Positions 43,894-44,405 of a DNA stretch of 64,000 bases are shown in pieces (the stretch's first letter is position 1; the number at the start of each line of letters is the position of its first letter). The DNA comes from Escherichia phage vB_EcoM-ZQ1. The position numbers and the translations under genes are program-made. The stretch is taken from sequence record MW650886.1; one strand, given 5' to 3'. The notes beneath the pieces were generated by a model that was not told the DNA's origin, did no database searches, and worked only from the letters and a program-made list of their open reading frames with translations.

Positions 43894-44041
43894 TGTTTGA
43901 AACTGATTTATTATCCTACTTCGTGATGTGTGATGAATTGAAGTTACACGGCTATAGCATATTTGAAATCAACGAGTCGATGCCATGGCATCTTGACTTG
44001 TTAACCGAAGCCCTCAAGGTCAGGTTGTCTAAGAAACAGTA

Positions 44042-44066
44042 ATCCCGCTTCGGCGGGATTTTTATT
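44042..44066 (+). terminator. rho-independent terminator (atcccgc-TTCG-gcgggat then TTTTATT), UUCG tetraloop
   Basis: perfect 7-bp stem plus U-tract read directly. Confidence 0.7.
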
Positions 44067-44112
44067 GTCTTAACTGCAAAATAGGTTAACACGCGTTCTC
44101 TTTACCTGAAAT

Positions 44113-44121
44113 TGCTATAAT
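44113..44121 (+). promoter_or_regulatory. extended -10 promoter element TGcTATAAT
   Basis: TG-n-TATAAT read directly inside the 512-bp non-coding region upstream of the gp5-like gene. Confidence 0.4.
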
Positions 44122-44363
44122 GGGCTTGTTCCCGAGTCATTTGTTGGTGTTTGTCTGTTTTGAATCAGATTGTCAGTAAAATACCATTTTTCAAGGAGTG
44201 TTCTGGGGTGTACAGTTATTGCCTCGCCCTTATGCCTCCATGGCATTGGAATGGTGCTGCCCGCATAGGGCGGTTTGATGAGCGAAGCGAATAGGATCGA
44301 ATAAAACAAATAAAATGAACGGAAGCAGAGCTTCCTATAGTATATAAGGCAAAATCAGCTGCG

Positions 44364-44371
44364 CATAAATA
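44364..44371 (+). promoter_or_regulatory. late-promoter-like box CATAAATA (one mismatch from TATAAATA)
   Basis: about 35 nt upstream of the start at 44406. Confidence 0.35.
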
Positions 44372-44405
44372 CCTTCAAATCCTTGTTTGACAACCGGAAC
44401 TCAAT

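What the first reader, a model, noticed from the sequence alone, without database searches (positions are those of the whole stretch)
43894..44405. 512-bp non-coding region upstream of the gp5-like gene with stacked regulatory signals
This is the longest intergenic stretch in the window. It holds a possible 38-aa ORF (43926-44042), a strong UUCG terminator (44042-44066), an extended -10 element (TGcTATAAT at 44113-44121) and a late-promoter-like CATAAATA (44364-44371). About 250 nt of leader with no good ORF could be a regulatory leader or a small RNA.
Basis: seen in the sequence. Interest (0 to 1): 0.45.

Follow-up and report, generated by a model that had tools for sequence, protein, structure and literature searches.

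The report
Conserved pseudoknot RNA upstream of gp5
The gap before the tail-spike (gp5) gene of this Vi1-like phage holds a real 49-codon gene, its terminator, and a control region centred on a folded RNA element (pseudoknot plus hairpins) that is absent from the RNA-family library searched, is conserved across the phage family, and occurs again before two other genes.

Summary
The window is an Ackermannviridae (Aglimvirinae) genome, about 98.7% identical to Escherichia phages RPN242, YX22 and A221. The stretch is not 512 bp of non-coding DNA, though. Bases 43893-44042 are a conserved 49-codon gene (PHROG 9633, weakly gp51-like), which leaves a 363-bp intergenic region (44043-44405).

That region is conserved in about 270 phage records. 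Its most conserved part (91% identity between subfamilies, against 66-76% for the flanking genes) is a roughly 65-nt RNA structure on the gp5-sense strand:
- an H-type pseudoknot (44232-44254)
- a 7-bp hairpin (44256-44274)
- a hairpin with a tandem G.A internal loop (44278-44292)

All 20 Watson-Crick or G.U pairs form in every sequence. Six pairs show compensatory changes, and the conserved G.U pairs fix the strand. No Rfam family matches.

A second full copy lies upstream of the gp6-like wedge gene. A reduced copy, with G.A hairpins only, lies upstream of the gp45 clamp gene. All three sit just downstream of conserved promoter-like boxes.

Best reading (inferred, no transcript data): a cis-acting structured leader on pre-late sigma70 transcripts, which late transcripts bypass. 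A trans-acting sRNA and an origin primer RNA remain possible.

The parts
43087..43893 (+). gp26-like baseplate hub gene (3' neighbour of the finding)
   Evidence: PHROG 150 'baseplate hub', E 1e-55. Annotated in RPN242, LIMEstone1 and Ag3.
43893..44042 (+). Real 49-codon gene (ORF49). Its ATG overlaps the gp26 stop (TAATG).
   Evidence: PHROG 9633, residues 1-49 of 49, E 3e-39. Weak hit to phrog_634 'baseplate hub assembly catalyst'. Annotated as a CDS in relatives. 98.7% nucleotide identity to Limestonevirus; the protein is conserved in Kuttervirus and Taipeivirus.
44041..44066 (+). Intrinsic terminator T1: AATCCCGC-UUCG-GCGGGATT followed by a T run
   Evidence: Found by the terminator scan. 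Annotated as a terminator in LIMEstone1 and in Klebsiella phage May. The stem changes by compensation between clades: CCCGC/GCGGG, CCCCGC/GCGGGG, CCCCAC/GUGGGG.
44069..44090 (.). Conserved block CTTAACTGCAAAATAGGTTAAC, an imperfect palindrome upstream of P1
   Evidence: Conserved letters in all clades, but pairing is not maintained in L020 or the Menlow type. More likely a DNA-level site; function unknown.
44113..44121 (+). P1: extended -10 sigma70-type promoter element TGcTATAAT
   Evidence: AAATTGYTATAAY is conserved in Aglimvirinae, Kuttervirus and May-type Taipeivirus; Menlow-type phages have TCTTATAAT. No conserved -35. Promoter activity is not tested.
44122..44175 (+). Variable segment between P1 and the conserved core
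   Evidence: 40-51% identity between clade representatives. I found no conserved helix here.
44176..44216 (+). Promoter-like boxes 'P_E': A-tract 44176-44187, TTTTCA 44188-44193, a 17-nt variable spacer, then TACAGT 44211-44216
   Evidence: The same arrangement (TTTTCT, TTTTCA or TTGTCA, then exactly 17 nt, then TAYNNT) is seen in copies 1 and 2 across genera, including phiMAM1. In copy 3 a 17-nt spacing holds only with the -35-like box read as TTTCTT. The spacer sequence varies while the boxes and the spacing do not. That it is a promoter is inferred.
44232..44254 (+). H-type pseudoknot. S1 pairs 44232-44236 with 44242-44246. S2 pairs 44238-44241 (inside the S1 loop) with 44251-44254.
   Evidence: S1 is AUGCC/GGCAU in copy 1 and CAGCC/GGCUG in copy 2. 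S2 is CCAU/AUGG or CCCU/AGGG. All cells pair. This is the conservation peak of the region, at 91%.
44256..44274 (+). Hairpin P2: GCUGCCC-GCAUA-GGGCGGU, 7 bp
   Evidence: Pair types include C-G/U-A, U-A/C-G/U.G and G.U/A-U. The U.G pair is kept in 20 of 22 sequences, which fixes the strand.
44278..44292 (+). GA hairpin (GA2): A-U-[GA]-GC-GAA-GC-[GA]-A-U, with a tandem G.A internal loop
   Evidence: the closing pair is U-A or C-G. The loop ranges from 3 nt to an inserted hairpin. It is present in all three paralogues and in phiMAM1 and Erwinia phage Bue1.
44229..44293 (+). Extent of the covariance-model match to the core (pseudoknot S1 + P2 + GA2)
   Evidence: Model R1 scores 88.8 bits here, E 3e-23. 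The only other strong hit in the genome is copy 2, at 76 bits.
44293..44320 (+). A-rich linker, at the start of a low-stability A+T-rich stretch that runs to about 44360
   Evidence: The 60-bp window starting at 44300 is among the roughly 1% least stable duplex windows in the 64 kb.
44321..44341 (+). Hairpin or palindrome F (GGAAGC-AGA-GCUUCC, 44321-44335) followed directly by TATAGT (44336-44341)
   Evidence: The stem changes by compensation: GGAAGC/GCUUCC, GGAUGC/GCAUCC, GGCGGC/GCCGCC. On the + strand its tail (UAUAGUAUAU) is too poor in U to be called a terminator. It may instead be the spacer of a TTGAAC/ATGAAC-15/16-TATAAT promoter (inference). It is absent from most copy-2 lineages.
44364..44371 (+). 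T4-type late promoter CATAAATA for gp5, followed by CCTTCAA
   Evidence: (C/A)TAAATAYC recurs upstream of late genes across the genome. Annotated as a putative late promoter in LIMEstone1.
44406..46016 (+). gp5-like baseplate hub and tail lysozyme gene

Best explanation
The finding combines two things: the end of the baseplate-hub operon and a control region.

The operon end is a real 49-codon gp51-like gene plus its intrinsic terminator.

The control region is a 363-bp intergenic stretch conserved across the Ackermannviridae. Its core is an RNA element read on the gp5-sense strand. It consists of an H-type pseudoknot, a 7-bp hairpin and a hairpin carrying a tandem G.A internal loop (44232-44292). 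It lies about 15 nt downstream of the -10-like hexamer of conserved sigma70-like promoter boxes (-35-like TTTTCA, 17 nt, -10-like TACAGT), and about 110 nt downstream of a conserved extended -10 promoter.

I propose the following mechanism:
1. Host-type (pre-late) RNA polymerase starts at these promoters and transcribes the structure.
2. Because no convincing terminator follows, transcription continues into gp5.
3. The folded 5' domain acts in cis as a binding platform, most plausibly for a protein recognising the invariant G.A loops and pseudoknot loops. This sets the fate (processing, stability, elongation or translation) of the long transcript.
4. Late transcripts start at CATAAATA (44364), downstream of the element, and escape this control.

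The same module sits upstream of the gp6-like wedge gene. A reduced form sits upstream of the gp45 clamp gene.

Shown here: the conservation, the RNA-type base pairing, the strand, the paralogy, and the absence of the element from Rfam.
Inferred: that the boxes are promoters, that the RNA continues into gp5, that it acts in cis, and that a protein binds it.
For: Identity and conservation:
- The window is about 98.7% identical to RPN242, YX22 and A221, which are Ackermannviridae.
- The intergenic region matches 269 phage records.
- Against Limestonevirus it is 92.8% identical, compared with 80.5% and 83.8% for the flanking coding DNA. Across subfamilies the 20-column identity peaks at 91% over 44226-44246, compared with 66-76% for the flanking genes.

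Structure:
- In 22 distinct core sequences, 16 of 16 pairs (S1, S2, P2) form a standard pair in all 352 cells. Five pairs change on both sides. 0 of 500 shuffles reach the observed score. Controls with the 3' partner slid by 1-3 columns pair in only 20-57% of cells.
- With GA2 added, 20 of 20 pairs form in every sequence, and the closing pair switches between C-G and U-A.
- The related double-G.A hairpin in copies 2 and 3 has 8 of 8 pairs at 100%, three of them with changes on both sides.

Strand:
- The U.G pair is kept in 20 of 22 sequences, and one pair alternates between G.U and A-U. On the opposite strand these would be A.C mismatches.
- The + strand folds better than shuffled sequence (z -2.6) than the - strand does (z -1.7).

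Paralogy and specificity:
- The covariance model scores 88.8 bits here and 76 bits upstream of gp6. It detects only the GA hairpin upstream of gp45, at 19.7 bits.
- Every complete Ackermannviridae genome in IMG/VR carries exactly two core copies, on opposite strands.
- Copies 2 and 3 are conserved in 270 and 273 phage records respectively.

Promoter-like boxes:
- Fixed 17-nt spacing with a variable spacer is seen in the copies and genera examined.

No terminator after the element:
- The tail after hairpin F does not pass the terminator scan on the + strand.
- Most copy-2 lineages and copy 3 have no terminator-like hairpin with a U tract between the element and the gene.

Not coding:
- There are frame-shifting indels inside the core, no Shine-Dalgarno sequence, and the candidate ATG is CAG in copy 2.
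Against: - I found no transcript data for any Ackermannviridae phage. Promoters, RNA ends and timing are therefore all inferred.
- The P_E hexamers are weak sigma70 matches (8 of 12) and were not reported by the promoter scan.
- The most obvious cis mechanism, hiding the ribosome-binding site in the long transcript as for T4 gene e, is not supported. The predicted accessibility of the Shine-Dalgarno/AUG region is no lower in long transcripts than in short ones in 9 of 10 lineages.
- No binding protein has been identified.
- Effective sequence diversity is low, about 5-7 lineages plus paralogues. Some 'independent' compensatory changes may be single events spread by gene conversion between copies.
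- It is unclear why a baseplate hub gene, a wedge gene and the clamp gene would share one leader element.
Confidence: 0.45

Rival explanations
1. A stand-alone, trans-acting small RNA. It would run about 120 nt from the P_E boxes, or about 215 nt from P1, and end at hairpin F (44321-44335). It would act on host or phage targets, or titrate a host RNA-binding protein.
For: - The layout is promoter, structured domain, A-rich linker, then a covarying GC-rich hairpin followed by an A/U-rich tail.
- Two to three gene copies per genome would raise the dose.
- In Kuttervirus-type copy 2 the GA hairpin is extended into a strong GC-rich stem.
Against: - The tail after hairpin F (UAUAGUAUAU) has too few U residues and does not pass the terminator scan on the + strand.
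- Most copy-2 lineages (phiD3, P46FS4, Klebsiella phages) and copy 3 have no terminator-like hairpin between the element and the gene.
- I found no conserved single-stranded 'seed'. The 5' part downstream of P1 is the least conserved segment.
- There is no similarity to any E. coli sequence or to any Rfam sRNA.
Confidence: 0.2
2. The three paralogous modules (promoter, then structured RNA, then an A+T-rich stretch) are R-loop-type replication origins. The transcript would stay hybridised in the easily melted DNA downstream and prime leading-strand synthesis, as at T4 oriF and oriG. The folded 5' part would help form or process the primer, as in ColE1 RNA II.
For: [quoted passage not shown] Several T4 origins sit at points of transcriptional divergence within late-gene regions (PMC3016281).
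- Here the modules sit upstream of the gp5 and gp6 homologues, which is syntenic with oriE. Copy 2 sits at a major point of transcriptional divergence.
- The 60 bp starting at 44300 are among the roughly 1% least stable duplex windows in the 64 kb. Copy 3 is followed by an 80-87% A+T stretch containing an 18-nt direct repeat.
- The phage encodes RNase H, UvsW and a helicase loader.
Against: - At T4 oriF and oriG, R-loop formation needs no specific RNA sequence or structure.
- The iterons of oriE have no counterpart in this window: no tandem or evenly spaced repeats were found in 43800-44500.
- A+T-rich DNA next to promoters is common.
- The A+T-rich stretch of copy 2 is short.
- There is no replication data for any Ackermannviridae phage.
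Confidence: 0.12
3. The region is purely a DNA-level stack of promoters and operators. The palindromes would be protein-binding sites and no RNA structure would have a function.
For: - The region is dense in promoter-like elements: P1, P_E, TATAGT and the late promoter.
- S1 and hairpin F are perfect DNA palindromes. Block 44069-44090 keeps its sequence but not its pairing.
Against: - The two copies in one genome have different S1 half-sites (ATGCC versus CAGCC) that nevertheless stay complementary.
- S2 pairs a hairpin loop with a downstream segment, which is not an operator geometry.
- Conserved U.G and G.U positions are not palindromic in DNA.
- Helix length and loop size vary freely in GA2, while the pairing and the G.A dinucleotides are kept.
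Confidence: 0.08
4. The core encodes a micro-protein. Candidates are the 20-aa MPPWHWNG... from the ATG at 44232, or the ORFs that some GenBank records annotate here.
For: - An ATG-initiated 20-codon frame exists in copy 1, and MPPWHW(N/K)G is conserved.
- Some records annotate 'hypothetical protein' in this gap.
Against: - There is no Shine-Dalgarno sequence, and the ATG is CAG in copy 2.
- One-nucleotide indels shift the frame after codon 10, so the C-terminal halves are unrelated between clades.
- The only substitutions in the conserved part are exactly the covarying base pairs.
- The ORF annotated in Klebsiella phage May is in a different frame, starts with GTG, and is interrupted in the window.
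Confidence: 0.03

Closest known systems
T4 gene 32 mRNA leader pseudoknot (T-even phages)
   Same: Both are compact H-type pseudoknots in the upstream non-coding part of a T4-related phage transcript. The gene 32 pseudoknot serves as a structural landmark for protein binding (from my own knowledge of T4 biology).
   Different: The gene is different (gp5 and gp6, not gp32). I noted no sequence resemblance by eye, but I made no alignment or search against the gene 32 pseudoknot. Here the pseudoknot is followed by a hairpin and a G.A-loop hairpin, occurs in two copies per genome, and lies upstream of the late promoter. No binding protein is known.
HK022 put RNAs and lambda nut (boxB) sites: cis-acting antitermination RNA elements
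   Same: In both cases short structured RNAs are encoded just downstream of early promoters, occur in two paralogous copies per genome, and keep their structure through compensatory changes. The put and nut elements act on the polymerase that made them (from my own knowledge).
   Different: - put consists of two stem-loops without a pseudoknot.
- boxB is a 5-bp stem with a conserved GNRA-like pentaloop. Here the hairpin loops vary freely, and it is the internal G.A loops that are invariant.
- There is no boxA-like element conserved across clades.
- No terminators that clearly need to be overridden lie between the element and gp5.
T4 replication origins (oriF and oriG as promoter + DUE; oriE near genes 5 and 6)
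   Same: The layout is a promoter followed by an A+T-rich, easily melted stretch. The position next to the gp5 and gp6 homologues is syntenic with oriE. There are several copies per genome, and one lies at a point of transcriptional divergence.
   Different: T4 R-loop origins need no RNA structure. The 12-nt iterons of oriE are absent here. No replication data exist for this family.
Kink-turn / 'GA motif' RNAs
   Same: Tandem sheared-type G.A/A.G dinucleotides flanked by Watson-Crick pairs, invariant while the surrounding helices covary.
   Different: The internal loop is a symmetric 2x2 loop without the 3-nt bulge that defines a kink-turn. E. coli has no L7Ae-type kink-turn-binding protein (from my own knowledge).

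Membership tests
Any Rfam 15 family (riboswitches, ribozymes, sRNAs, leaders) | Covariance-model score at or above the family's gathering threshold | tested here: not met
   The whole window gave 0 matches at gathering thresholds. In 43880-44450 at E<=10, the only hits were weak ones driven by the UUCG terminator (isrB, rsmX, istR at 18-22 bits, against cut-offs of 35-56). Nothing matched 44170-44345.
tRNA / tmRNA | Cloverleaf detected by ARAGORN | tested here: not met
   0 genes found in the window.
H-type pseudoknot (structural class) | Two helices, the second pairing the loop of the first with downstream sequence, each supported by covariation | tested here: met
   S1 has two pairs changed on both sides and S2 has one (A-U to C-G). 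100% of cells pair. The loop lengths (1, 0 and 4 nt) are sterically plausible by general pseudoknot rules (inference). No structure probing has been done.
Kink-turn | Tandem G.A pairs next to a 3-nt bulge (asymmetric loop) | tested here: not met
   The G.A/A.G loop is symmetric (2x2) in GA2 and in the double-G.A hairpin.
Hammerhead ribozyme | Conserved core: CUGAUGA, stem II, GAAA | tested here: not met
   The window has UUGAUGA-GC-GAA-GC-GAAU, which resembles the core. Kuttervirus and Taipeivirus have GUUACGA... and UUCACGA... in its place. No Rfam hammerhead model matches.
Lambda-type nut site (boxA + boxB) | Conserved boxA sequence plus a boxB hairpin with a conserved GNRA-like pentaloop | tested here: not met
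   The hairpin loops vary (GAA, GUA, AAC, UUCA, or a whole inserted hairpin). A boxA-like CUCUUUA at 44100-44106 is confined to Aglimvirinae and lies upstream of P1.
HK022 put RNA | Two adjacent stem-loops that act in cis to make RNA polymerase resistant to terminators | not testable with these tools
   The architecture differs (pseudoknot plus hairpins). Antitermination can only be tested experimentally.
T4 gene e-type translational control (ribosome-binding site hidden in long transcripts, free in late transcripts) | Upstream sequence pairs with the Shine-Dalgarno/AUG region only in the long transcript | tested here: not met
   Mean unpaired probability of positions -15 to +4 is 0.47-0.67 in long transcripts and 0.39-0.64 in short ones. 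It is not lower in the long form in 9 of 10 lineages.
T4 R-loop origin (oriF/oriG type) | Promoter followed by an A+T-rich DNA unwinding element | tested here: inconclusive
   Promoter-like boxes are present. The low-stability stretch at 44300-44360 is in the least stable ~1% of the window. Both features are also ordinary properties of intergenic DNA.
T4 oriE | [quoted passage not shown] | tested here: not met
   No tandem repeats were found in 43800-44500, and only two short two-copy direct repeats in 43880-44420.
Rho-independent terminator (T1) | GC-rich stem-loop followed by a U tract | tested here: met
   8-bp stem with 5 G-C pairs, a UUCG loop and a TTTTATTG tail. The stem covaries between clades.
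T4-type late promoter | TATAAATA-like -10 element with no -35 element, upstream of late genes | tested here: met
   CATAAATA lies 35 nt upstream of the gp5 ATG. (C/A)TAAATAYC recurs upstream of structural genes across the genome. Homologues of gp55, gp33 and gp45 are encoded. Promoter activity is not tested.
Sigma70 extended -10 promoter (P1) | TGnTATAAT | tested here: met
   TGCTATAAT at 44113-44121. The TATAA(T/C) hexamer and flanking AAATTG are conserved across three clades. Promoter activity is not tested.

The most novel reading that the evidence does not exclude
The three ~360-bp paralogous modules (upstream of gp5, gp6 and gp45) are the replication origins of Ackermannviridae. A host-polymerase transcript with a conserved folded 5' domain (pseudoknot and G.A hairpins) would form a persistent hybrid in the A+T-rich DNA just downstream and prime DNA synthesis. 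Because these sites lie next to late promoters, they could also deliver the sliding clamp that switches on late baseplate genes. This would be a structured primer RNA in a T4-related phage, syntenic with the poorly understood T4 oriE.
Probability: 0.12. Interest if true: 0.8.

Novelty: new variant of a known kind. Interest (0 to 1): 0.58.

Why it matters
Vi1-like (Ackermannviridae) phages are widely used for biocontrol and engineering. Their gene regulation, however, is essentially undescribed:
- The CBA120 genome paper could not identify early or middle promoters (PMC3184105).
- A 2024 review of the family never mentions promoters, transcription or regulation.

This locus offers a concrete, testable regulatory RNA. 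The element is family-wide, is the best-conserved sequence in its neighbourhood, occurs in two to three copies per genome, and sits next to the late promoters of baseplate genes and the clamp gene.

Possible outcomes:
- If it is a cis leader, it is an entry point to the pre-late to late switch in this family.
- If it is an origin primer, it would map the unknown origins and shed light on T4 oriE.
- In either case it is a candidate new RNA family (pseudoknot plus tandem-G.A hairpins), with clear compensatory-mutation experiments available.

It also matters for phage engineering, because this 'empty' gap should not be used as a neutral insertion site.

Tried and rejected
Each check below led nowhere or ruled something out.

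1. tRNA/tmRNA scan: nothing found.
2. Rfam at gathering and permissive thresholds: only terminator-driven noise.
3. Hammerhead reading of UUGAUGAGCGAAGCGAAU: not conserved outside Aglimvirinae.
4. Ribosome-binding-site sequestration in long transcripts: not supported.
5. Long-range helices suggested by single-sequence folds, none conserved in other clades:
   - 44139-44145 with 44306-44312
   - the 5' GCUGAAG with the GA2 loop in CBA120
   - CUCGC with GCGAG
   - 44017-44035 with 44383-44401
6. A second copy inside the window: none. The paralogues lie outside the window.
7. Wider distribution:
   - The IMG/VR pattern scan found only Ackermannviridae plus chance hits in high-GC contigs.
   - The metagenome scan gave 9 stretches, of which 2 are real and both are known copy-2 types.
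   - The covariance model found nothing in distant gp5 loci L034-L073.
8. Mimicry of a host RNA: no match in 5,426 E. coli genomes.
9. Genome-wide enrichment of a generic tandem-G.A hairpin pattern: 69 observed against 42 +/- 5.5 expected, and the hits are mostly inside genes. This is not informative.
10. CsrA-type GGA enrichment: about 5 GGA in 210 nt against about 3 expected, so dropped.
11. A boxA-like sequence: not conserved.
12. Iterons or tandem repeats: none.
13. Literature on Ackermannviridae transcriptomes or sRNAs: nothing found.
14. Cumulative GC skew across the genome: abandoned, because the window and RPN242 pieces did not join exactly and skew in T4-like phages mainly follows transcription direction.
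Full report
**What the window is.** The 1.5 kb around the finding is 98-99% identical to Escherichia phages A221, RPN242 and YX22. It is 94% identical to Shigella phage Ag3 (Agtrevirus), 86% to Dickeya Limestonevirus phages, and 60-80% to about 240 Kuttervirus and Taipeivirus records. All of these are Ackermannviridae (taxonomy). The flanking genes are a gp26-like baseplate hub gene, a gp5-like hub and lysozyme gene (44406-46016), and a gp25-like gene.

**Checking the observation.**
- the UUCG terminator (44041-44060 plus a T run)
- TGcTATAAT (44113-44121)
- CATAAATA (44364-44371)

LIMEstone1 annotates the homologous terminator and late promoter.

The '38-aa ORF' is the tail of a 49-codon ORF (43893-44042). 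Its ATG overlaps the gp26 stop codon. It is annotated in relatives. It matches PHROG 9633 over its full length (E 3e-39), with a weak second hit to 'baseplate hub assembly catalyst', that is, gp51-like. The real intergenic region is therefore 363 bp (44043-44405). That is still the longest gap in the annotated homologous 50 kb, where the next largest is 225 bp.

**Conservation.** The 363-bp gap alone matches 269 phage records.

| Compared with | gp26 3' end | ORF49 | Intergenic region | gp5 5' end |
|---|---|---|---|---|
| Limestonevirus | 80.5% | 98.7% | 92.8% | 83.8% |
| CBA120 | 67.6% | 77.2% | 67.6% | 76.0% |
| Klebsiella phage May | 65.9% | 72.2% | 65.1% | 73.5% |

(All values.)

Within the gap, identity among six clade representatives falls to 40-50% at 44138-44167 and peaks at 91% at 44226-44246. 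The most constrained sequence of the neighbourhood is therefore non-coding.

**The structure.** I collected 22 distinct core sequences from two paralogous loci: upstream of gp5, and upstream of the gp6-like wedge gene. Three helices pair perfectly in this set:
- S1: AUGCC/GGCAU in copy 1 and CAGCC/GGCUG in copy 2.
- S2: CCAU, which lies in the loop of S1, pairs with AUGG four nucleotides downstream. This becomes CCCU/AGGG in Taipeivirus (both copies) and in CRW-SP2.
- P2: (G/A)CUGCCY-loop-RGGCGGU.

All 352 cells form standard pairs. Five pairs change on both sides. 0 of 500 shuffles reach the observed pairing or covariation score. Controls with the 3' partner slid by 1-3 columns pair in only 20-57% of cells.

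S1 and S2 use different nucleotides and interleave, so together they form an H-type pseudoknot with loops of 1, 0 and 4 nt.

A fourth helix (GA2, 44278-44292) is A-Y-[GA]-GC-loop-GC-[GA]-R-U. Its closing pair switches between U-A and C-G. Its loop ranges from 3 nt to a whole inserted GC-rich hairpin, while the two G.A dinucleotides never change.

Copies 2 and 3 carry a longer relative, C-[GA]-GUUGU-[GA]-GC-loop-GC-[GA]-RCAAC-[GA]-G. It has 8 of 8 pairs intact, three of them with changes on both sides. phiMAM1 has a 6-bp variant of its middle stem.

**Strand.** The U.G pair in P2 is kept in 20 of 22 sequences, and another pair alternates between G.U and A-U. On the other strand these would be A.C mismatches. 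The structure therefore belongs to the gp5-sense strand, which points to RNA. Single-sequence folding agrees, with z -2.6 for the + strand and z -1.7 for the - strand.

**Not a known family and not coding.**
- ARAGORN finds no tRNA.
- Rfam 15 has no match at gathering thresholds. At E<=10 it has nothing over 44170-44345.
- The hammerhead-like string UUGAUGAGCGAAGCGAAU is confined to Aglimvirinae.
- A 20-codon frame starting at the S1 ATG exists in copy 1. However, the ATG is CAG in copy 2, single-nucleotide indels scramble the C-terminal half, there is no Shine-Dalgarno sequence, and the only substitutions in the conserved part are the covarying base pairs.
- The 'hypothetical protein' annotated here in Klebsiella phage May is in another frame with a GTG start, and that frame is interrupted in the window.

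**Paralogues and distribution.**
- Inside the window there is no second copy.
- In the closest complete genome, the core recurs upstream of the gp6-like wedge gene, and the GA2 segment recurs upstream of the gp45 clamp gene.
- A covariance model of the core scores 88.8 bits here, 76 bits at gp6 and 19.7 bits (GA2 only) at gp45. It finds nothing else in the genome or in distant gp5 loci.
- The three intergenic regions are 363, 366 and 361 bp long. Each is conserved in about 270 phage records.
- Every complete Ackermannviridae genome in IMG/VR carries exactly two core copies, on opposite strands. Other hits to the pattern are chance matches in high-GC contigs.
- A metagenome-wide scan added only two contigs, both of known types.
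- Serratia phage phiMAM1 (both copies) and Erwinia phage Bue1 (copy 1; its other copies were not examined) lack the pseudoknot and P2. They keep the G.A hairpins, and phiMAM1 also keeps the promoter-like boxes; no such boxes were found in Bue1.
- The G.A hairpins are therefore the universal module. The pseudoknot and P2 are an addition in Aglimvirinae, Cvivirinae and Taipeivirus.

**Other signals in the gap.** About 15 nt upstream of the pseudoknot lie an A-tract, TTTTCA (44188-44193), a 17-nt spacer and TACAGT (44211-44216). The same boxes (TTTTCT, TTTTCA or TTGTCA, then exactly 17 nt, then TAYNNT) precede the structure in copies 1 and 2 and in every genus examined except Erwinia phage Bue1. 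The spacer sequence varies freely. For copy 3 the 17-nt spacing holds only if the -35-like box is read as TTTCTT. Conserved boxes at fixed spacing around a variable spacer are the signature of a promoter rather than of an RNA helix. The hexamers are weak matches to sigma70, however, and the assignment is an inference.

Hairpin F (44321-44335) covaries: GGAAGC/GCUUCC, GGAUGC/GCAUCC, GGCGGC/GCCGCC. It is followed by TATAGT or TATAAT. Its tail is too poor in U to count as a terminator on the + strand, and most copy-2 lineages lack this hairpin. It could equally be the palindromic spacer of another sigma70-type promoter.

The late promoter motif recurs upstream of structural genes across the genome.

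**How it most likely works.** An RNA made from P_E or P1 has no convincing terminator ahead of it in any of the three loci. The simplest reading is therefore a structured 5' leader on pre-late, host-polymerase transcripts of gp5, and likewise of gp6 and gp45. Late transcripts start downstream of the element and lack it. The invariant G.A loops and pseudoknot loops, set in helices that are free to covary, look like a recognition surface for a protein.

I tested the classical T4 mechanism for such pairs of long and short transcripts, in which the ribosome-binding site is hidden only in the long form. It is not supported. Which step the leader controls remains open. I put 0.45 on this cis-leader model and about 0.85 on the narrower claim that a functional sense-strand RNA structure exists.

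**Rivals.**
- *Trans-acting sRNA ending at hairpin F (0.2).* It fits copy 1 but not the terminator-less copies 2 and 3.
- *Origin primer RNA (0.12).* This is suggested by T4 biology. T4 origins consist of a promoter plus an A+T-rich unwinding element. oriE uses an early-mode promoter and lies near repEA, in the gene 5-6 region. Origins tend to sit at transcriptional divergences within late-gene regions (PMC3016281). Here the 60 bp from 44300 are among the ~1% least stable in the window, and copy 2 sits at a major divergence. Against this, T4 R-loops need no RNA structure, and the oriE iterons are absent here.
- *DNA-only operator stack (0.08) and micro-ORF (0.03).* Both are disfavoured by the pattern of covariation.

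**Novelty.** I found no description of this element:
- It is not in Rfam.
- The CBA120 genome paper states that early and middle promoters could not be identified.
- The LIMEstone paper lists only predicted promoters and terminators.
- A 2024 family review never mentions promoters, transcription or regulation.

It is a new RNA motif of a familiar general kind: a structured phage leader or non-coding RNA. Its function is still open.

Noticed in passing
window 43893-43928, and the homologous sites L006:533-580 and L005:545-590: ORF49 starts with ATG in Aglimvirinae. In Kuttervirus and Taipeivirus the same position reads ATT and overlaps the gp26 stop codon (TA-ATT). Even so, the 11 codons before the internal ATG (43926) change mostly synonymously. 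This suggests a non-canonical start, termination-reinitiation coupling, or a -1 frameshift from gp26.
   Followed up: partly
outside the window: RPN242 132740-133105 (L010:19741-20106, - strand) and 88768-89128 (L009:24769-25129, - strand): Two paralogous intergenic regions of about 360 bp each. One lies upstream of the gp6-like wedge gene and carries the full core plus a double-G.A hairpin. The other lies upstream of the gp45 sliding clamp gene and carries two G.A hairpins plus an 18-nt direct repeat in very A+T-rich DNA. Each is conserved in about 270 phage records.
   Followed up: yes
L010:19741-20106 compared with other Ackermannviridae: The copy-2 region of RPN242-type phages is 94-95% identical to Salmonella Kuttervirus phages, but only about 80% identical to Agtrevirus and Limestonevirus. 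This points to a recombination junction at the boundary of the gp6 and tail-spike module.
   Followed up: no
window 42874-42901 (+): A perfect sigma70 consensus promoter (TTGACA, 16 nt, TATAAT; 12 of 12) lies upstream of the gp26-like baseplate hub gene. A structural operon therefore appears to carry a strong host-type promoter as well as a late one.
   Followed up: no
window 60015, 53835, 47098, 36334 and 28367 (all - strand); L009 12187 and 10485; L010 27514: A recurring motif: TTTACT/TTTACA, 16-17 nt (often beginning TCTTCAATA), then TATTAT/TATACT. It is often preceded by TTATTGAA and often sits just after a terminator hairpin. This is a candidate early-promoter class, resembling the T4 early -35 GTTTAC. 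The raw count (9) is close to chance expectation (about 7), so only the shared extra features are suggestive.
   Followed up: partly
window 43980-43991: A perfect 12-nt palindrome, ATGCCATGGCAT, lies inside ORF49 (encoding M-P-W-H). It closely resembles the pseudoknot stem sequence ATGCC-TCC-ATGGCAT at 44232-44246. This may be coincidence or a trace of common origin.
   Followed up: no
window 40859-41104 (-): An 81-aa Zn_ribbon_8 (FmdB-like) protein is encoded directly next to the gp33 late-transcription co-activator homologue. It is a possible nucleic-acid-binding regulator, but I have no evidence linking it to the RNA element.
   Followed up: partly
window 44041-44060; L009 ~34180-34202; L010 ~12686-12708 and ~10028-10045: Nearly identical UUCG-loop terminators (CCCGCTTCGGCGGG followed by T residues) are reused at several operon ends, including between tail-spike genes.
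   Followed up: no
L005:862-1056 (Klebsiella phage May HOS53_gp093) and 'hypothetical protein' calls in other records: Several GenBank records annotate ORFs inside this intergenic region. They are in different frames, use non-ATG starts, and are not conserved, so they are probably spurious gene calls laid over the RNA element.
   Followed up: partly
window 40320-40380: The gap upstream of the gp32-like ssDNA-binding protein gene (- strand) contains TTTTCTAC and a GGGGTAATTATACCCC hairpin. T4 gene 32 has a well-known leader pseudoknot, and I did not examine whether a counterpart exists here.
   Followed up: no
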